Counted from the first letter of the stretch, positions 45,177-51,235 are shown. The stretch is 64,000 bases of DNA from Burkholderiales bacterium (GCA_035519135.1 DATIWX010000135.1:1459-65458), one strand, 5' to 3'. The notes: generated by a model from the sequence alone, not told the origin. Program-made: numbers and translations.

Positions 45177-45491
45177 TCAGCGGCGGGTGATGAGCAGGCC
45201 GACCAGCGCGCCGGCGGCGGCGGCGAAGCCGATCATCGGCCAGGGATGCGCGTGGACGTACTCGTCGGTCGCAACCGCCGTGGCCTTCGCCCTTTCCACC
45301 GCCACCTCCTGAGTGGCGTCGATTTTCTGCTTCACGGCCTTGATGGTCTCCTGGACGCGCGCACGGGCGGCCACGACCTTCTCGTTGGCCTGGTTCGCGG
45401 TCGCCTGGAGGAGCAGCTCGGTGTCCTCGATGACGGTGTTGAGATCCGCGGTAAGCTTGTTCTTCGCTTCAATGACATTTCCGGTATACAT
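45177..45491 (-). CDS. DUF883 (ElaB/YqjD-like) tail-anchored stress protein
   Basis: 104 aa from MYTGNVIEAKNKL.. The C-terminal anchor is ..HPWPMIGFAAAAGALVGLLITRR. Confidence 0.75.
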   Translation of the reverse strand: MYTGNVIEAKNKLTADLNTVIEDTELLLQATANQANEKVVAARARVQETIKAVKQKIDATQEVAVERAKATAVATDEYVHAHPWPMIGFAAAAGALVGLLITRR

Positions 45492-45545
45492 GATTGCCTC
45501 CTGCGTAAAAATCGATTCACTAGGTACTACCTTAGCAAGGCGGAA

Positions 45546-45559
45546 TGGCGCCCGGTTGA
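45546..45559. promoter_or_regulatory. FNR/FixK-type box TTGATCCAGATCAA (perfect)
   Basis: Its centre is 61.5 bp upstream of the ATG at 45491. Confidence 0.65.
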
Positions 45560-45576
45560 TCCAGATCAAGCTCCTC

Positions 45577-46692
45577 TCAGTATCCGGCGACGATGAGGCG
45601 ACTTTGCGCTTCGCGCTCGACCCGCGTGCCGAAGCGGCGGCCTTCGCGCTCGAGCATCGCAGCGAGCCAGGACCCTTCCTCCTCCGTCGCCCGCACGGCT
45701 CGGAACCGGGCGATACGCGTGGGGGTCAGCGACAGGCGCACGAGCCTGCCGCTCGCCGCGTCGAACGTCGGGAAGTACATCAGAGCCAGTTCCGGGCGAA
45801 ACGGCTCGTGCCCCGAGATGCCTTCGTAGTCGTTGAGAAAGTCTCCGCAACCGTAGAGGATCGGTCTGTCGCGGTGGATCTCGATCGCCTTGGGATGGTG
45901 CGAGGAGTGGCCGTGCACGACGTCGGCGGCGCCGGCGCCGATCAGCCGGTGCGCGAACTCGCGCTCGGGGTTGGAGACATCGTAGCCCCAGTTGCCGCCC
46001 CAATGGATCGAGACGACCGCGATGTCGCCCGCCCGTCTGACCGCCGCGATCTCGGCGGCGATACCGTCCGCGGTTTTCGGCGAAAGATCGGGGAGCATGC
46101 GCAGTCCCGGCCGCTGCCGGGTCGCCGCCCAGTCCGAAGGCATCCCCGCGCTCTCCATGCCGAAAGCGAACACCAGCACGCGGCGATCTTCCGCGAGATC
46201 GATGACCGCCGGCGCAGCCGCCTCGGCTGCATCGCGGCCGGCGCCGGCCGTGCGCACGCCGGCCGCACGCAGCGTGTCGAGCGTCTCTTCGAGTCCGCGA
46301 ATACCCCAGTCGAGCGCGTGATTGTTGGCGAGCACGCAGCAATCGATCTTCGCGGCCGCGAGGCAGGGGACGTTCGCCGGATGCATGCGGTAGTGGATCC
46401 CTTTGCGCGGCCACGCATCGTCCGACGTGGTCACCGCGGTTTCGAGGTTGATGATGCGCGCATCCGGCCGCACGCGATCCAGCTCGGCAAGCGCATCGCC
46501 CCAGACATAGGAGAAGTCGACCGGCTTCGGCAGCGGCCCCGCCGCTTCTTCGGCGAGCTTCACATAGCCGATCGCCGATCGCATGTACGGCTCGAAGAGC
46601 TGCGGCTCGACCGGATGCGGAAGGATCTGATCGATGCCGCGGCCGGTCATCACGTCGCCGCACAGGAACAGCGTGACGTGTGGGTTCCCCAT
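45577..46692 (-). CDS. CapA-family (poly-gamma-glutamate synthesis-like) metallophosphatase-fold protein
   Basis: 371 aa from MGNPHVTLFLCGDVMTGRGID.. with ..ANNHALDWG.. and ..VHGHSSHHPK.. Confidence 0.8.
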   Translation of the reverse strand: MGNPHVTLFLCGDVMTGRGIDQILPHPVEPQLFEPYMRSAIGYVKLAEEAAGPLPKPVDFSYVWGDALAELDRVRPDARIINLETAVTTSDDAWPRKGIHYRMHPANVPCLAAAKIDCCVLANNHALDWGIRGLEETLDTLRAAGVRTAGAGRDAAEAAAPAVIDLAEDRRVLVFAFGMESAGMPSDWAATRQRPGLRMLPDLSPKTADGIAAEIAAVRRAGDIAVVSIHWGGNWGYDVSNPEREFAHRLIGAGAADVVHGHSSHHPKAIEIHRDRPILYGCGDFLNDYEGISGHEPFRPELALMYFPTFDAASGRLVRLSLTPTRIARFRAVRATEEEGSWLAAMLEREGRRFGTRVEREAQSRLIVAGY

Positions 46693-46697
46693 GATGC

Positions 46698-49523
46698 TCA
46701 CGATCCCGCCGCCAGATCCGGTTCTCCGCAGTGCGCCAGGATTTCCGCGCGCGCGAGGTTCCTGAGGGCGACCGCCGCGCTCCACGCCTGTCCTTGCGGC
46801 CGCAGCAGCGGGCCCGCGAGGATCTGGATCACGCCCCGCCGCGGGAGCCAGTCTCCGTCCCTCAGGACCGAGCGCGTTCCGCGGACCGCGACCGGCAACA
46901 CCGGTATGCCGGCGGCGGCAGCGGCGACGAATGCGCCCAGGTGGAACGGCAGCAGGCCCGGCGCGCGCGTGAACGTGCCTTCGGGGAAGAACACCAGCGA
47001 TTCGCCGCGCTCCGCGAGGTGCGACAGCTCGCGGGAATCGCGCACGCTGCGCTCGGTGTCGCCGCGCTCGACGAAGCGGACACCGTAGGCGCGGAGCAGC
47101 CAGCCGACGACGGGGTATTCGGCCAGCTCGCGCTTGGCCACGAAACAGAGACCGTCGGGCAAAGTCGCGAACAGCAGAAAAGCATCGAAATAACTCGAAT
47201 GGTTGGCGACGACCATGAGCGGCTCTCCGGGAAAGTTCTCGAGCCCGCGCACCAGGACGGGCAGTCCCGAGACACGCAGAAGCGCGCGGAGGAGAAGGCG
47301 AACGGCGCGCCGGCGCCGGGCGCTGCCCGGCAGCAGCAGGGCGGGGAAGGTGCCGAGCGCAAAAGCGGAGAACAGCGCCCAGAGCCAGGCGGCGTAGAGC
47401 CTTTCGGCGGCGGTGCGCCCGGCGCGCCGCAGACGCGCGCGCACCATGCTCCAGAGGAAACCGGCCCGCTGCCGCCATGCTTCGAGCCGCCCGGCGCTGA
47501 CCAGGCCGCGCTCGTAGGCGTCCCGGCTCGCGGCGCGCCGTATCTTGCCGCTCGAGGTCTTCAACACCGTGTGCGGCGGGGCGAGCACGATGTCGTCCGC
47601 AGGCGCGCCGAGAAGCTTCAGCGCGAGCTCGGCGAGCGCCTCGCGCAGTCTCTCCAGCCGCTCGCGGTCGGTGAACCGGGTCTCGGCGAGCACCACGACC
47701 TTTTCGGTCCCCAAGACCGGGTCGGCGACGCCGAACACGGCGACGCAGCCCTTGCGGATGCCCTCGAGATTTCCCGCGGCCGCCTCGAGCTCGTAGGGAT
47801 GCACGTGCTGACCGCCGCGGATGATGAGGTCCTTGGCGCGGCTGGTCGGAAAGATCTCGCCGCCGGCGATGTAGCCCAGGTCTCCCGTATCGAGCCAGTC
47901 GCCGTCGAACAGGGACCGCGTCGCTTCGGCATTGCGGAAATAGCCGGCGGTCGCGGACGGGCCGCGAAACTCGATGCGCCCCTCGCGGCGCTCGGGCAGC
48001 TCGCGCCCGTTCCCGTCGACGACGCGGATCGGGTGCCGCGGCAGAGGCACTCCGCAAGCGGCGAAGGGCAGGGCGTCGGCGTCGTCGGCACGCGCGGATG
48101 AGGCGACGCCCTCGAGCATGAGCGGGCGCCGCTCGACGCGATCGACGAGCGGCCCGCGCCCGAGCGGCGGAAAGGCGAGGCCGACCGCGCACTCTGCGAG
48201 CCCGTACACCGGTGCGAGCGCGGAAGGCGCGAAGCCGTGCGCCGCGAAGCGCCCGGCGAAGCGCGCCAGGGTATCGGGACTCACCGGTTCCGCGCCGTTG
48301 AATGCGATGCGGAGGGAGCTCAGGTCGAGGCCTGCGAGATCGCGTTCGTCCACGCGCGCGGCGCACAGCTCGTACGCGAAGTTGGGCGCCGACGTGAGCG
48401 TGCCGCGATAGCGGTGAATCGCCCACAGCCAGCGCGAAGGCCTCGTCAGGAACGACGCCGGCGGCATGACGACCAGCGGAAACGCGAAATACAGGCTTCC
48501 GAGCCATGCGCCGATGAGGCCCATGTCGTGGTAGAGCGGCAGCCAGCTCACGAACACGTCGTGCGAATCGGCGGCGACGGCTTGCCCCATCGCGCGGATA
48601 TTGGCGAGCAGATTCGCGTGGCTCAGCATCACGCCCTTCGGATTGCCGGTGCTCCCGGAGGTATATTGCAGCAGGGCGAGATCCTCGCTGCGCCGCGGTC
48701 GCGGCCCCGGGGCCTCGGGCCTGGCGAGCTGCGATACGGTCACGCAGCTTCGCAATGTGGGAACCTGGTCGCGCAACAAGGCGGCAAAGCGCTCCGCCTC
48801 CGGAAACGTGACCAGCAGCTTCGCCAGGCAGTTGTTCAATATGCCGGATTGGCGGCGCAGATGCTCCGCGATGTCCGACGCGCGCGCCGGAGGATAGATG
48901 GGCACGGGCACGGCCCCGGCGATCACAACGGCGAAGAACACGCCGAAAAACTCGCGGCAGGTCGGAAGCATGATGGCGACGGTGTCACCCGCCCCGACGC
49001 CGAGATCGGCGAATCCCGCCGCAAGGCGTCCAGCCTCGCCGCGAAGCTCGGCGTAGCTCATCGGCTCGCCGCGCTCGCCCTCGGCGAGCAGCACGACGTG
49101 CACGCGCGCGGGATGCGCAGCGACGTGCCAGTCGAGGACGTCGAGGAGCGTCGCGGCCTCATCGGGGAGCTCTTCGCTTCCGAGCGCGGCCTGCACGATC
49201 GGCGTCGCGGCCTGCGCGCCCGGCTCCGATGCGCGCGCGCCTCCTGCCCGCACCGCCCGGAGCAGGTCGCGCGGCGTTTCCGCCGTGCCGAGCAGATGCT
49301 CCGGCAGCCGCAGGTCGAAGGCGCGCTCGATGCGCATGATCAGTTCCACGCGGGCGAGGCTGTCGATGCCGAGGTCGCGCTCGAGCGAGCTGTCCAGGCG
49401 CACCGCCCTCGCGCGCCCGCCCTGTTCCGATTCCCGGAGGAGCTCGGCGATGACGGCAAGCAGTGTCGCGGAGAGCGCCTCGTTCGCCGGCTCGGTGCGC
49501 GGGCGGTCGCTTACTTCGGGCAT
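46698..49523 (-). CDS. tri-domain fusion: acyl carrier (PP-binding), AMP-dependent acyl ligase, and PlsC-type acyltransferase
   Basis: 941 aa. The N-terminus has ..LGIDSLARVELIMRIE.. The core has ..LQYTSGSTGNPKGVMLSHANL.. The C-terminus has ..VANHSSYFD.. and ..FPEGTFT.. Confidence 0.8.
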   Translation of the reverse strand: MPEVSDRPRTEPANEALSATLLAVIAELLRESEQGGRARAVRLDSSLERDLGIDSLARVELIMRIERAFDLRLPEHLLGTAETPRDLLRAVRAGGARASEPGAQAATPIVQAALGSEELPDEAATLLDVLDWHVAAHPARVHVVLLAEGERGEPMSYAELRGEAGRLAAGFADLGVGAGDTVAIMLPTCREFFGVFFAVVIAGAVPVPIYPPARASDIAEHLRRQSGILNNCLAKLLVTFPEAERFAALLRDQVPTLRSCVTVSQLARPEAPGPRPRRSEDLALLQYTSGSTGNPKGVMLSHANLLANIRAMGQAVAADSHDVFVSWLPLYHDMGLIGAWLGSLYFAFPLVVMPPASFLTRPSRWLWAIHRYRGTLTSAPNFAYELCAARVDERDLAGLDLSSLRIAFNGAEPVSPDTLARFAGRFAAHGFAPSALAPVYGLAECAVGLAFPPLGRGPLVDRVERRPLMLEGVASSARADDADALPFAACGVPLPRHPIRVVDGNGRELPERREGRIEFRGPSATAGYFRNAEATRSLFDGDWLDTGDLGYIAGGEIFPTSRAKDLIIRGGQHVHPYELEAAAGNLEGIRKGCVAVFGVADPVLGTEKVVVLAETRFTDRERLERLREALAELALKLLGAPADDIVLAPPHTVLKTSSGKIRRAASRDAYERGLVSAGRLEAWRQRAGFLWSMVRARLRRAGRTAAERLYAAWLWALFSAFALGTFPALLLPGSARRRRAVRLLLRALLRVSGLPVLVRGLENFPGEPLMVVANHSSYFDAFLLFATLPDGLCFVAKRELAEYPVVGWLLRAYGVRFVERGDTERSVRDSRELSHLAERGESLVFFPEGTFTRAPGLLPFHLGAFVAAAAAGIPVLPVAVRGTRSVLRDGDWLPRRGVIQILAGPLLRPQGQAWSAAVALRNLARAEILAHCGEPDLAAGS

Positions 49524-49612
49524 GAGAATCCGTCTTCGGGGAAAGCCGCTCTAACTTCGCCGTCGACCTTCGAAAGAACTCCACCATGTTGCGCGACCAT
49601 GCGCGGCGACCC

Positions 49613-49626
49613 TTGATCCAAATCAA
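49613..49626. promoter_or_regulatory. FNR/FixK-type box TTGATCCAAATCAA (perfect) in a divergent region
   Basis: Its centre is 96.5 bp from the ATG at 49523 (minus strand) and 36.5 bp from the ATG at 49656 (plus strand). Confidence 0.6.
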
Positions 49627-49655
49627 GAATCGGGGCGCCGTCCGCGCGTTGATGC

Positions 49656-50189
49656 ATGTCAACACGGATGGCGCAGCCGGCTGTCAAAGTGTGGGCGATG
49701 GATTCCGGGTCGAAAATTCGGATCAACCGGTTCAGCTTCGGGGGTACCGCCGGCATCGTCGCCTGCGTGGCTCTCGTCGTCGGTCTCGGTGCGGCGGGCG
49801 CGCCGAAGTCGGTGATCGTCAGCAGCCTCCTGATCGTCGCGCTGGCCGACAATCTCACCGACTCCCTGAGCATCCATATCTATCAGGAGTCCGAGCGCCT
49901 CCCGGGGAAAGAGGCGTTTCTCGCGACCACCTCGAACTTCGTGTCGAGGCTGCTGGTGTCGTTGAGCTTCGTTCTACTCGTGCTGGCGCTGTCGATCCGC
50001 GTCGCGGTCGTGGCGGCGCTCGCCTGGGGACTGTTCCTCCTGGGTCTGCTCAGCTGGATGATCGCCCGGCAGCGCGGCGTGCAGCCGGTTCCCGAAGTGG
50101 CCAAGCATCTGTTCGTGGCCCTGGTCGTGGTGGCCGTCGCCGAGCTCATCGGCGACTGGATCCCCACCCTGCTCCCGGCCGGTCCCTGA
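49656..50189 (+). CDS. small VIT1/CCC1-like membrane protein (tentative)
   Basis: 177 aa with ..FSFGGTAGIV.. and ..LIVALADNLTDSLSIHIYQESE.., followed by TM helices. The start is uncertain (in-frame ATGs at 49656, 49668 and 49698). Confidence 0.5.
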   Translation: MSTRMAQPAVKVWAMDSGSKIRINRFSFGGTAGIVACVALVVGLGAAGAPKSVIVSSLLIVALADNLTDSLSIHIYQESERLPGKEAFLATTSNFVSRLLVSLSFVLLVLALSIRVAVVAALAWGLFLLGLLSWMIARQRGVQPVPEVAKHLFVALVVVAVAELIGDWIPTLLPAGP

Positions 50190-50221
50190 GGCTCCCGCGT
50201 TCACCTGCCGGCGCTGCCCGA

Positions 50222-51235
50222 ATGCGTCCGATGCTCATGCCGCAGCTCGTAAACCCGGCGTTCGGCGACCCGGGCCTGTACGTGGATTTCCGCAACGAGA
50301 AGCGCGCGCTGCTCTTCGACATCGGCGACATCGGCATGCTCGCGCCGCGCAAGCTGCTGCGTCTCTCGCATGTGTTCGTCTCGCACACGCACATGGATCA
50401 TTTCATGGGCTTCGACGCGCTGCTGCGCGTGAGCCTGGGGCGCGATGTCGCGGTGCGCCTGTTCGGCCCGCCGGGATTCGTCGACCAGGTCGCGCACAAG
50501 CTCGCCGCCTACACCTGGAACCTCGCCGAATCCTACCCGGGCGATTTTTCGGTGCTCGGGTCGGAACTGCACGCGGACGGCAGGCTCATTTCGGCGCTGT
50601 TCCGCTGCCGGCGCCGCTTCGAGCGCGAAACGCTCGAGGAGGCGCATGTCGAGGACGGCATCCTGGTCGACGAACCCGGGTTCCGGGTTCGCACCGCGTT
50701 TCTCGAGCATCGAACCCCCTGCCTCGCCTTCGCCGTCGAAGAGAAGGCGCACGTCAACATCTGGAAGAATCGCCTCGACGAGATGGGCCTTCCGGTCGGA
50801 CCCTGGATCCGGGACCTCAAGGAAGCGGTGCTCGAAGGTGCGCCCGACGACGCGCCGGTCCGGGCCTCGTGGAAAGAGAAGGGCGAGCGGACGGAACGCG
50901 TTCTTGCCCTCGGTGAACTGAAGGCGCGGGCGCTGCAAGTCGTTCCGGGGGAGAAGCTGTGCTATGTGACCGACGCCGCGTTCAGCGTGCAGAACGCGCA
51001 GCGCATCGTCTCCCTGGCGAAAGACGCCGATCTGCTTTTCATCGAGTCGGTCTTCCTCCAGGAGGATGTCGATCAGGCGCAACGGAAGTGCCACCTGACG
51101 GCGCGCCAGGCGGGAGAGATCGCGCGCGCCGCCGGCGCGCGCGCCGTCGAGCCTTTCCACTTCTCCCCGCGCTACGCGGGGCGCGAAGGCGAGCTGCGTG
51201 CCGAGCTGGAGCTCGCGTTTCGCGGCTCGAGCTAG
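50222..51235 (+). CDS. metallo-beta-lactamase-fold hydrolase, RNase Z/ElaC-like
   Basis: ..VFVSHTHMDHFMGFD.. is the HxHxDH motif. The C-terminal part has ..HLTARQAGEIA.. Confidence 0.7.
   Translation: MRPMLMPQLVNPAFGDPGLYVDFRNEKRALLFDIGDIGMLAPRKLLRLSHVFVSHTHMDHFMGFDALLRVSLGRDVAVRLFGPPGFVDQVAHKLAAYTWNLAESYPGDFSVLGSELHADGRLISALFRCRRRFERETLEEAHVEDGILVDEPGFRVRTAFLEHRTPCLAFAVEEKAHVNIWKNRLDEMGLPVGPWIRDLKEAVLEGAPDDAPVRASWKEKGERTERVLALGELKARALQVVPGEKLCYVTDAAFSVQNAQRIVSLAKDADLLFIESVFLQEDVDQAQRKCHLTARQAGEIARAAGARAVEPFHFSPRYAGREGELRAELELAFRGSS

What the first reader, a model, noticed from the sequence alone, without database searches (positions are those of the whole stretch)
45577..49626. An ACP, acyl-AMP ligase and PlsC-acyltransferase are fused in one 941-aa protein, coupled to a CapA-family protein and preceded by a perfect FNR-type box
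The fusion carries a phosphopantetheine attachment motif (GIDSLARVEL), an adenylation core (YTSGSTGNPKG) and acyltransferase motifs (NHSSYFD, FPEGT) in that order. This is the reverse of E. coli Aas and adds a built-in carrier domain. Its stop is 5 nt from the start of a CapA-like metallophosphatase-fold gene. In principle, such a protein could activate a fatty acid, load it on its own carrier and transfer it to a lysolipid or another acceptor. Low-oxygen control suggests membrane lipid remodelling or synthesis of a specialised lipid. The role of the CapA partner is unknown.
Basis: partly seen in the sequence, partly recalled or inferred. Interest (0 to 1): 0.6.

Follow-up and report, generated by a model that had tools for sequence, protein, structure and literature searches.

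The report
FNR-boxed carrier–FAAL–acyltransferase fusion gene
One 941-residue membrane-anchored protein joins an acyl carrier domain, a CoA-independent fatty-acid activator and a PlsC-type lipid acyltransferase; it belongs to a large, already noticed but untested bacterial family, and only its oxygen-sensor-type promoter box and its CapA neighbour are peculiar to this lineage.

Summary
ORF 46698..49523 (-) encodes PP-binding, FAAL-type AMP-binding and AGPAT-like acyltransferase domains in that order. All catalytic motifs are invariant across 72 homologues. A PGA_cap (CapA-family) gene follows, most likely by a conserved GTGA start/stop overlap. A perfect TTGAT-N4-ATCAA box lies 96 nt upstream.

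The fusion is not rare. More than 8000 proteins and more than 600 genome loci from many phyla share the architecture. Two surveys mention FAAL-LPLAT fusions in passing, and I found no functional study.

The most likely mechanism is an Aas-like salvage that needs neither CoA nor free ACP: fatty acid + ATP gives acyl-AMP, then acyl-S-carrier in cis, then transfer to a lysoglycerolipid.

The CapA link is local. CapA lies within 8 kb in 3 of 80 loci. It is absent beside relatives at 84% and 76% identity. Around 20 CapA orthologues sampled elsewhere, none has the fusion within 6 kb. Their recurrent neighbour is an RNase Z-like MBL hydrolase. The two genes do co-occur in genomes of this order (9 of 13 against 14 of 138).

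FNR control is plausible. The box and a -10-like CAACAT are conserved at class II spacing, the genome encodes an FNR with E. coli cysteine spacing, and the window holds 12 boxes. It is lineage-restricted and untested.

The parts
46698..49523 (-). ACP-FAAL-TM-acyltransferase fusion gene (941 aa, P0001)
   Evidence: ORF and translation; three Pfam domains above cut-off; full-length homologues at 50-88% identity.
49251..49466 (-). Carrier (PP-binding) domain, aa 20-91; phosphopantetheine Ser55 codon at 49359-49361
   Evidence: PF00550, E 2.5e-9; ACP HMMs; D54 and S55 invariant in 72 sequences.
47496..49151 (-). Fatty acyl-AMP ligase domain, aa about 125-676, including the FAAL-type insertion at about aa 442-487 (48063-48200)
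   Evidence: Best NCBIfam hit is the FAAL model NF006624, 412.6 bits, which is below that model's 600-bit curated cut-off. PDB FAALs align in one stretch over 125-676, while CoA ligases break at about 441-488. The AF2 model superposes on E. coli FAAL 3pbk with TM 0.90 and rmsd 3.0 A.
47268..47489 (-). Arg-rich amphipathic and hydrophobic helices, aa 679-752 (hydrophobic core about 710-733): the membrane anchor linking FAAL to the acyltransferase
   Evidence: Hydropathy peak at 720-726; AF2 helices 679-728 and 734-752.
46884..47258 (-). PlsC/AGPAT-like acyltransferase domain, aa 756-880, with HX4D (H775, D780), FVAKRE, FPEGT and PVLPV motifs
   Evidence: PF01553, E 6e-29; TIGR00530 105.1 bits against a cut-off of 102.95; T. 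maritima PlsC 5kym, E 1e-20; H775, D780, E848 and G849 invariant.
45577..46701 (-). CapA-family (PGA_cap) gene, cytoplasmic type, 374 aa from GTG 46701 (GTGA overlap) or 371 aa from ATG 46692
   Evidence: PF09587, E 7.8e-82. The only solved relative is the peptide epimerase MslH. The GTGA overlap is conserved in L082.
49613..49626 (.). Perfect FNR/CRP-type box TTGATTTGGATCAA, centre 96.5 nt upstream of the fusion ATG
   Evidence: Conserved in L082/83 and L084/85.
49586..49591 (-). Candidate -10 element CAACAT; its last T lies 33.5 nt from the box centre, which fits a class II (-41.5) activator-dependent promoter
   Evidence: Invariant CGCAACAT block in the three-way promoter alignment. No sigma-70 consensus promoter in the region. 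The spacing rule comes from established knowledge of FNR class II promoters.
49649..49662 (.). Second FNR-type box (TTGATGCATGTCAA, 1 mismatch), centre 42.5 nt from ATG 49698 of the divergent 163-aa membrane-protein gene
45556..45569 (.). Third, perfect FNR-type box, 8 nt downstream of the capA stop, in front of the DUF883 gene (45177..45492, -). It marks the 3' boundary of the two-gene unit

Best explanation
The gene encodes a self-contained, membrane-anchored enzyme that salvages fatty acids and re-acylates lipids.

Proposed steps:
1. The FAAL domain converts a free fatty acid and ATP to acyl-AMP. Like other FAALs, it cannot pass the acyl group to CoA.
2. The acyl group goes to the phosphopantetheine arm on Ser55 of the protein's own N-terminal carrier domain.
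3. The C-terminal AGPAT-like domain sits at the membrane surface, held by the 679-752 helices. It transfers the acyl chain from the carrier to a lysoglycerolipid acceptor, either lysophosphatidic acid or another lysophospholipid.

Functionally this is what E. coli Aas does with borrowed ACP. It was assembled independently, from a FAAL-clade ligase and in a different domain order.

In this lineage the gene is the first of a two-gene unit (fusion, then capA). That unit is driven by an activator-dependent promoter with an FNR-type box at about -41.5. It is therefore probably induced when oxygen is scarce, along with the many other boxed operons of this window.

What is shown: the domains, the motifs and their conservation, the membrane helices, the box, the conserved -10-like element and the FNR orthologue.

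What is inferred: every catalytic step, the acceptor, and the regulation.
For: Domains:
- Three domains score above their cut-offs.
- The ligase is FAAL-like by HMM (best hit a FAAL model, below its curated cut-off). It aligns with PDB FAALs in one stretch but with CoA ligases only in two stretches broken at about 441-488. Its fold matches E. coli FAAL with TM 0.90.
- The acyltransferase passes the TIGR00530 AGP_acyltrn cut-off. It scores above OlsA and Aas-type models and aligns to PlsC 5kym across the HX4D to motif IV region.

Conservation:
- These residues are invariant in 72 homologues at 54-88% identity, so all three activities are under selection: Ser55, the A3/A5/A7/A10 ligase motifs (K660), H775, D780, E848 and G849.

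Stand-alone enzyme:
- It is single copy, with no conserved neighbour in 80 loci, so it works without a fixed partner.
- An Atg22-like MFS transporter is adjacent in 9 of 80 loci, which recalls LplT next to Aas.
- An AcpS-type PPTase is present in the genome.

Regulation:
- The box is perfect.
- The box and CAACAT are invariant at class II spacing in relatives.
- The genome's FNR orthologue has Cys53/56/62/155, the same spacing as E. coli FNR, and an ETVSR recognition helix.
- There are 12 boxes in 64 kb against 0.36 expected.
- Boxes recur upstream of the fusion in distant lineages such as Mesorhizobium delmotii (10 of 79 loci, about 1.3 expected).
Against: - No member of the family has been assayed. 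I found only passing mentions (PMC8460268, PMC12820801).
- The acceptor is unknown. The TIGR00530 score is barely over the cut-off, and OlsA-type models also match.
- The genome already has an LplT-like MFS-acyltransferase fusion and an Aas-type ligase, so plain lysophospholipid repair may be redundant.
- Whether the single AcpS loads this divergent carrier domain is unknown.
- FNR-type boxes are also read by CRP, Dnr and NnrR-type paralogues, and the genome has at least six such regulators.
- Most family members in the same order lack a box.
Confidence: 0.6

Rival explanations
1. The fusion and CapA form a two-enzyme pathway for a specialised lipid made at low oxygen. The fusion would acylate an unusual acceptor, such as an amino-lipid or another head-group-modified lysolipid. 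The metallophosphatase-fold CapA protein would modify the head group or epimerise or hydrolyse an intermediate.
For: - GTGA translational coupling is conserved in an 81% relative.
- CapA orthologues lie within 3 kb of the fusion in three distant lineages: L001, L025 and L027.
- The two genes co-occur in genomes of the order: 9 of 13 against 14 of 138, Fisher p = 2e-5 without the own genome and 1e-3 by genus.
- OlsA-type models are the second-best match for the acyltransferase.
Against: - CapA is within 8 kb in only 3 of 80 loci.
- It is absent beside relatives at 84% and 76% identity.
- In 8 of the 9 genomes that have both genes, the genes are far apart or on different contigs.
- Of 20 CapA-centred loci, none has the fusion within 6 kb. 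Five have an RNase Z-like MBL hydrolase, directly adjacent in three.
- At phylum level the co-occurrence is not significant.
- The only characterised CapA relatives act on peptides or poly-glutamate, not lipids (PMC8179263).
Confidence: 0.15
2. The protein is a loading module for a non-lipid product. The FAAL and carrier would hand an acyl chain to a small-molecule or protein acceptor, as FAAL-ACP starters do in lipopeptide and polyketide pathways. The PF01553 domain would act as an atypical O- or N-acyltransferase.
For: - The closest solved structures include PKS- and NRPS-associated FAALs (7r7e olefin synthase, 6ulx).
- FAALs are best known from secondary metabolism (PMC8460268).
Against: - No PKS, NRPS or other biosynthetic genes are conserved next to the fusion in 80 loci.
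- The membrane-anchoring helices and all four PlsC motifs are conserved.
- The domain passes the AGPAT domain model.
Confidence: 0.08
3. The box is real, but it is read by a non-oxygen-sensing CRP/FNR paralogue (responding to cAMP, NO or another signal), or chiefly serves the divergent gene. In that case the fusion would not be specifically a low-oxygen gene.
For: - At least six CRP/FNR-family regulators are encoded.
- The intergenic region has two boxes, and either could serve either gene.
- In relatives a single box sits 42-44 nt from the divergent gene's ATG.
Against: - The recognition helix ETVSR and the exact FNR cysteine spacing occur in the best-scoring regulator.
- The CAACAT element on the fusion side is invariant at class II spacing.
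- The other boxed operons in the window were read by earlier notes as fitting a hypoxia or dormancy set. I checked only rtcA.
Confidence: 0.25

Closest known systems
E. coli Aas (2-acyl-GPE acyltransferase / acyl-ACP synthetase) with its flippase partner LplT
   Same: One membrane protein couples ATP-dependent fatty-acid activation to a carrier thioester and a PF01553 acyl transfer onto a lysolipid, without CoA. In a minority of loci (9 of 80) an MFS transporter gene is adjacent.
   Different: - The domain order is reversed, and the carrier is built in rather than borrowed AcpP.
- The ligase is FAAL-clade, not Aas-type. The Aas models score far below cut-off: NF005959 33.6 against 886, and NF006386 164.9 against 1221.
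- The adjacent MFS is Atg22-like, not LplT-like.
- The genome has a separate LplT-like MFS-acyltransferase fusion.
ACP-FAAL-LPLAT fusion family, noted in FAAL surveys (eLife 2021 PMC8460268; Protein Sci 2026 PMC12820801)
   Same: Same architecture and length, at 50-88% identity. This gene is a member.
   Different: Nothing structural. This member has an FNR-type promoter box and a translationally coupled CapA gene, which most members lack. The family has no tested function.
ElbD of Myxococcus xanthus (ether-lipid multidomain enzyme; PMC9131029)
   Same: It combines an adenylating domain, a carrier domain and an AGPAT-like acyltransferase in one chain.
   Different: A myxobacterial ElbD-like ORF examined here (L129, 1467 aa) has the order NAD_binding_4 reductase, AMP-binding plus AMP-binding_C, PP-binding, Acyltransferase. 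It shares 26% identity in the ligase and 29% in the acyltransferase. The present protein has no reductase, and its carrier comes first. The two are independent assemblies.
Stand-alone FAALs (E. coli FAAL 3pbk, Legionella 3kxw, mycobacterial FadD32)
   Same: The ligase domain has the same fold and the FAAL-type insertion.
   Different: Those enzymes hand the acyl chain to a separate ACP or PKS. Here the carrier and the final transferase are in cis.
CapA/PgsA of poly-gamma-glutamate synthesis, and the lasso-peptide epimerase MslH
   Same: The partner gene is a full-length PF09587 member. MslH is its only solved relative.
   Different: None of the ten flanking ORFs scanned with Pfam is a poly-gamma-glutamate synthesis gene, and the start of the protein reads as cytoplasmic (read by eye). 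The MslH match is weak: 75.9 bits against a 700 cut-off. Its recurrent neighbour elsewhere is an RNase Z-like MBL hydrolase.

Membership tests
ACP-FAAL-LPLAT tridomain fusion family | PP-binding, AMP-binding and PF01553 domains in that order in one chain of about 940 aa | tested here: met
   The top 120 homologues have the same precomputed architecture, apart from two N-terminally truncated entries that lack PP-binding.
ACP-FAAL-LPLAT tridomain fusion family | Full-length homology to other members, with catalytic residues kept | tested here: met
   54-88% identity over at least 95% of the length. S55, K660, H775, D780, E848 and G849 are invariant.
Fatty acyl-AMP ligase (FAAL) | FAAL-specific insertion in the N-terminal subdomain, relative to acyl-CoA ligases | tested here: met
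   FAAL structures align in one stretch over 125-676. CoA ligases align in two stretches that break at about 441-488. Fold TM is 0.90 to 3pbk.
Fatty acyl-AMP ligase (FAAL) | No acyl-CoA formation; transfer only to holo-carrier | not testable with these tools
   Needs an enzyme assay.
E. coli Aas | N-terminal acyltransferase followed by a C-terminal acyl-ACP synthetase; free ACP used as a subunit | tested here: not met
   The order here is carrier, ligase, acyltransferase.
E. coli Aas | Score above the curated equivalog models (NF005959, NF006386) | tested here: not met
   33.6 against 886, and 164.9 against 1221 bits.
PlsC / AGPAT-like acyltransferase | HX4D, motif II (FxxR/K-E), motif III (EGT) and motif IV (Pro) | tested here: met
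   NHSSYFD, FVAKRE, FPEGT and PVLPV, conserved. Aligned to 5kym.
PlsC / AGPAT-like acyltransferase | TIGR00530 domain model cut-off | tested here: met
   105.1 against 102.95 bits, marginal. The E. coli PlsC equivalog PRK15018 is not met (51 against 501).
PlsC / AGPAT-like acyltransferase | Acylates 1-acyl-sn-glycerol-3-phosphate | not testable with these tools
   The acceptor is unknown.
ElbD (ether-lipid enzyme) | N-terminal FAR-type reductase, then ligase, ACP and AGPAT in that order | tested here: not met
   The ElbD-like ORF has that architecture. The present protein has no reductase and a different order, with 26-29% identity.
CapA/PgsA (poly-gamma-glutamate synthesis) | PF09587 domain | tested here: met
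   E 7.8e-82, full profile.
CapA/PgsA (poly-gamma-glutamate synthesis) | Encoded with pgsB/pgsC-type ligase genes | tested here: not met
   The neighbours are the fusion, DUF883, a nitroreductase and an ABC ATPase. This was not searched genome-wide.
FNR-activated class II promoter | TTGAT-N4-ATCAA box | tested here: met
   Perfect match at 49613-49626.
FNR-activated class II promoter | Box centred about 41.5 nt upstream of the transcription start | tested here: inconclusive
   A conserved CAACAT lies at the right distance, but no transcription start data exist.
FNR-activated class II promoter | An FNR with the [4Fe-4S] cysteines and an E--SR helix encoded in the genome | tested here: met
   G000:C37 protein with C53, C56, C62, C155 and ETVSR. 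The spacing equals that of E. coli FNR, which is established knowledge.
FNR-activated class II promoter | Oxygen-dependent expression in vivo | not testable with these tools
   The organism is an uncultured MAG, and no expression data could be reached.

The most novel reading that the evidence does not exclude
The ACP-FAAL-LPLAT family is a second bacterial system for putting free fatty acids back into membrane lysolipids. It would be non-orthologous to LplT/Aas and independent of both CoA and AcpP. In this lineage it has been recruited into an FNR-controlled low-oxygen regulon. That regulon also appears to hold RNA repair (RtcB/RtcA), DNA repair (PolX) and ribosome hibernation genes, so membrane repair would be switched on together with nucleic-acid repair when respiration stops. 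CapA and the RNase Z-like MBL hydrolase would be further members of that regulon, not pathway partners.
Probability: 0.3. Interest if true: 0.65.

Novelty: new member of a known kind. Interest (0 to 1): 0.38.

Why it matters
The family is very large (thousands of proteins across many phyla) and has no tested function, so one biochemical characterisation would annotate all of it. If it is a CoA- and AcpP-independent salvage route, it adds a third way for bacteria to reuse fatty acids, beside FadD/PlsB-PlsC and Aas or FakAB. That bears on how bacteria bypass inhibition of fatty-acid synthesis.

This member adds a physiological handle. Oxygen-sensor-type boxes sit upstream here and, independently, in some alpha-proteobacteria such as Mesorhizobium. 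That points to micro-oxic conditions as the place to look for a phenotype. As a single gene it is an ordinary member of a catalogued family.

Tried and rejected
- Conserved neighbours of the fusion: all-against-all clustering of ORFs from 80 loci plus the window gave only shadow ORFs and a minority Atg22-like MFS, so no operon partner emerged.
- CapA as a universal partner: rejected.
- FNR box as a family trait: rejected. One of 20 order-level fusion loci and 1 of 12 CapA loci have a box.
- ElbD identity: a first candidate (L128) turned out to be a FAAL-ACP-C-PCP NRPS starter. The ElbD-like ORF (L129) has a different order and low identity.
- A 587-aa AMP-binding ORF next to CapA in L135 is an acetyl/acyl-CoA-synthetase type by its motifs, not a FAAL. 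It was not counted as an association.
- Greedy ORF maps of L001, L025 and L027 were unreliable in this high-GC DNA and were not used.
- The sigma-70 promoter scan found nothing, and the terminator scan found nothing above chance between the two genes.
- Literature searches for a characterised member, or for FNR/FixK regulon tables listing such a gene, found none.
- The fetch of an annotated region does not hold the Methylocystis record.
- The AF2 coordinates could not be read, so no carrier-to-active-site distances were measured.

Full report
**1. What is there**

The minus-strand ORF 46698..49523 encodes 941 residues.
- Pfam places a PP-binding domain at residues 20-91, an AMP-binding domain at 131-529 and a PF01553 acyltransferase at 756-880. 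All are above their curated cut-offs.
- The next gene on the same strand (45577..46692, or ..46701) is a full-length PF09587 PGA_cap protein (E 7.8e-82).
- The fusion's stop TGA occupies 46698-46700 and an ATG lies at 46692, so the 5-nt gap is correct.
- An in-frame GTG at 46701 overlaps the stop as GTGA. In an 81%-identical relative the same GTGA is the only possible start. A 4-nt overlap with translational coupling is therefore more likely.
- The scans found no convincing terminator and no sigma-70 consensus promoter between or before the two genes.

**2. The ligase is a FAAL**

- The best NCBIfam model is NF006624, 'fatty acyl-AMP ligase', matched over 17-564 of 567 positions. The 412.6-bit score is below that model's 600-bit cut-off.
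- Against the PDB, FAALs (E. coli 3pbk at 3.8e-87, olefin-synthase FAAL, Legionella FAAL, FadD32) align in a single stretch over residues 125-676.
- Acyl-CoA and aryl-CoA ligases align in two stretches that break between about 441 and 488. This is where the FAAL-specific insertion lies (the insertion concept is from PMC8460268).
- An AlphaFold2 model built on 72 homologues has mean pLDDT 80.7 and pTM 0.75. It superposes on 3pbk with TM 0.90 and rmsd 3.0 A.
- No solved structure resembles the whole chain.

**3. The acyltransferase is PlsC/AGPAT-like and membrane-anchored**

- The C-terminal 260 residues pass the TIGR00530 AGP_acyltrn domain model narrowly (105.1 against 102.95 bits).
- They score lower against OlsA (72 bits), Aas-type (62) and E. 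coli PlsC (51) models.
- They align to Thermotoga PlsC 5kym from HX4D through motif IV.
- Between the ligase and the transferase the model shows two long helices, 679-728 and 734-752. They have an Arg-rich start and a hydrophobic core at about 710-733. They sit just ahead of the HX4D motif, where I recall the two-helix membrane anchor of PlsC to lie; that comparison rests on memory and was not tested here.

**4. All three activities are under selection**

In 72 homologues at 54-88% identity the following are invariant:
- Asp54-Ser55 of the carrier.
- The ligase core motifs, including Lys660.
- His775 and Asp780, and Glu848-Gly849.

**5. How common it is**

- The protein search saturated at 8000 hits. 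Of the best 120, all but two N-terminally truncated entries (P0018, P0021) share the three-domain architecture, at about 925-1043 residues, and none carries an informative name.
The best 80 come from Gamma-, Beta- and Alphaproteobacteria, Desulfobacterota, Acidobacteriota, Actinomycetota, Nitrospirota, Methylomirabilota, Entotheonella and others.
- Cultured carriers include Mesorhizobium delmotii, Methylocystis, Cupriavidus, Thiocystis violacea, Marinobacter salicampi and Photobacterium.
- Within the window's own order, 23 of 151 sampled genomes carry one copy. Across the phylum, 10 of 401 do.
- Two FAAL surveys mention fusions of FAAL with lysophospholipid acyltransferases in a sentence each (PMC8460268; PMC12820801).
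- I found no functional study.
- Earlier notes of this scan flag the same family in at least 34 genomes, with the same reading. Those are leads, not independent evidence.

**6. Mechanism**

The best-supported reading is an Aas-like salvage enzyme assembled independently:
1. Fatty acid plus ATP gives acyl-AMP.
2. The acyl group passes to the in-cis phosphopantetheine arm.
3. The membrane-held AGPAT-like domain transfers it to a lysoglycerolipid.

The relation to known enzymes is analogy, not orthology.
- The Aas equivalog models are missed by a wide margin, and the domain order is reversed.
- The myxobacterial ElbD type has the order reductase, ligase, ACP, acyltransferase. It shares only 26-29% identity.

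Context fits a self-sufficient enzyme.
- No neighbour is conserved across 80 loci.
- The only recurrent one is an Atg22-like MFS transporter, next to the gene in 9 loci. This is a weak echo of LplT beside Aas.
- The genome has one AcpS-type PPTase that could load the carrier.
- It also has an LplT-like MFS-acyltransferase fusion and an Aas-type ligase elsewhere. The fusion is therefore an additional system, and its acceptor or fatty-acid preference may differ.

**7. The CapA partner**

Here, and in one relative at 81% identity, the two genes overlap.

Evidence against a general link:
- The relative at 84% identity has glycogen phosphorylase downstream instead.
- The relative at 76% identity has convergent rtcB-archease.
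- A CapA orthologue lies within 8 kb in only 3 of 80 loci: Usitatibacter, Amylibacter and Pseudolabrys.
- In 20 genomes sampled for the CapA orthologue alone, the fusion is never within 6 kb.
- In those genomes the recurrent neighbour is an RNase Z-like MBL hydrolase (NF002558, 384-463 bits). It is present in 5 of 20 and directly adjacent in 3.
- The same hydrolase sits on the other side of the fusion in this window (50201..51235).

Evidence for some link:
- Within the order, 9 of 13 genomes with the CapA orthologue also have the fusion, against 14 of 138 without it.
- Fisher's test gives p = 2e-5 without the own genome and 1e-3 when counted by genus.
- At phylum level the signal is not significant.

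I read this as shared membership of an accessory, co-regulated gene set, not as a pathway. A direct link is not excluded, and I give it 0.15.

**8. Regulation**

- The box at 49613-49626 is a perfect TTGAT-N4-ATCAA.
- The window holds 5 perfect boxes and 12 with at most one mismatch, against 0.02 and 0.36 expected.
- In the promoter alignment with two relatives, the box and a CGCAACAT block are invariant while the flanks vary.
- The last T of CAACAT (49586) lies 33.5 nt from the box centre. That fits a -10 element of a class II FNR promoter with the box near -41.5. It would put the transcription start near 49578, with a leader of about 55 nt.
- A second box (49649-62, one mismatch) lies 42.5 nt from ATG 49698 of the divergent 163-aa membrane-protein gene.
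- In relatives a single box occupies that same position relative to the divergent gene. Here each gene seems to have its own box.
- A third perfect box, at 45556-69, precedes the DUF883 gene and bounds the unit.
- The genome encodes a regulator with Cys53, 56, 62 and 155 and an ETVSR helix. The cysteine spacing is the same as in E. coli FNR.
- FNR-type boxes also occur upstream of the fusion in 10 of 79 loci, against about 1.3 expected. These include perfect ones in Mesorhizobium delmotii and an alphaproteobacterial MAG.
- Only 1 of 20 order-level loci has a box.

Low-oxygen control is therefore a reasonable but untested inference for this lineage. It is not a property of the family. Expression data could not be fetched.

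**9. Verdict**

The fusion is a member of a huge, already noticed and untested family. The CapA coupling and the FNR box are local features. Interest is moderate. The value lies in the family-wide open question, and in the hint that micro-oxic conditions are where a phenotype should be sought.

Noticed in passing
window 49524-49697; L082 5830-6025; L084 5880-6090: The divergent intergenic region has two FNR-type boxes 36 nt apart, where relatives have one. In all three loci, a box centre lies 42-44 nt from the ATG of the divergent 163-166-aa membrane-protein gene. That predicts a leaderless or nearly leaderless mRNA.
   Followed up: partly
window 50201-51235 (+); L143 7156-8163; L144 4931-5938; L146 7312-8322: An RNase Z-like MBL hydrolase of the PRK02126/NF002558 subfamily is the recurrent neighbour of the CapA orthologue in other genomes. 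It is adjacent in 3 and within 6 kb in 5 of 20. In this window it lies just across the fusion. MBL hydrolase plus CapA may be a module of its own.
   Followed up: partly
L014, L024, L025, L047, L050, L057, L080 and others: An Atg22-like (PF11700) MFS transporter gene lies next to the fusion in 9 of 80 loci, on either side and either strand. It is a possible lysolipid or fatty-acid transporter partner.
   Followed up: partly
G000:C81:17156-19015 (L118) and G000:C81:2221-3726: The same genome encodes an MFS-acyltransferase fusion (LplT-like plus PF01553) and, 13 kb away, an Aas-type AMP-binding ligase. A more canonical lysophospholipid repair set therefore coexists with the tridomain enzyme.
   Followed up: partly
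window 9945, 18701, 24343, 26476, 29464, 37262, 44446, 45556, 49613, 49649, 55643, 59803: Twelve FNR-type boxes occur in 64 kb against 0.36 expected. The window is a dense island of one regulon. By earlier notes, that regulon also includes polX-archease-rtcB, HPF-CSD, ftsH and nitroreductase genes.
   Followed up: partly
window 45177-45492 (-) with box 45556-45569: A DUF883 (ElaB/YqjD-like, membrane-anchored, ribosome-associated family) gene has its own perfect box centred 70.5 nt from its ATG. It follows capA in the 81% relative as well.
   Followed up: no
G274:C1:871119-873875 and 1722575-1725346: One complete genome of the same class carries two full-length paralogues of the fusion (42% and 40% identity to the query). 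Every other genome sampled has a single copy.
   Followed up: no
L128 4913-9193: A myxobacterial FAAL-ACP-condensation-PCP starter protein carries a PilZ domain inserted in the ligase region (residues 393-486).
   Followed up: no
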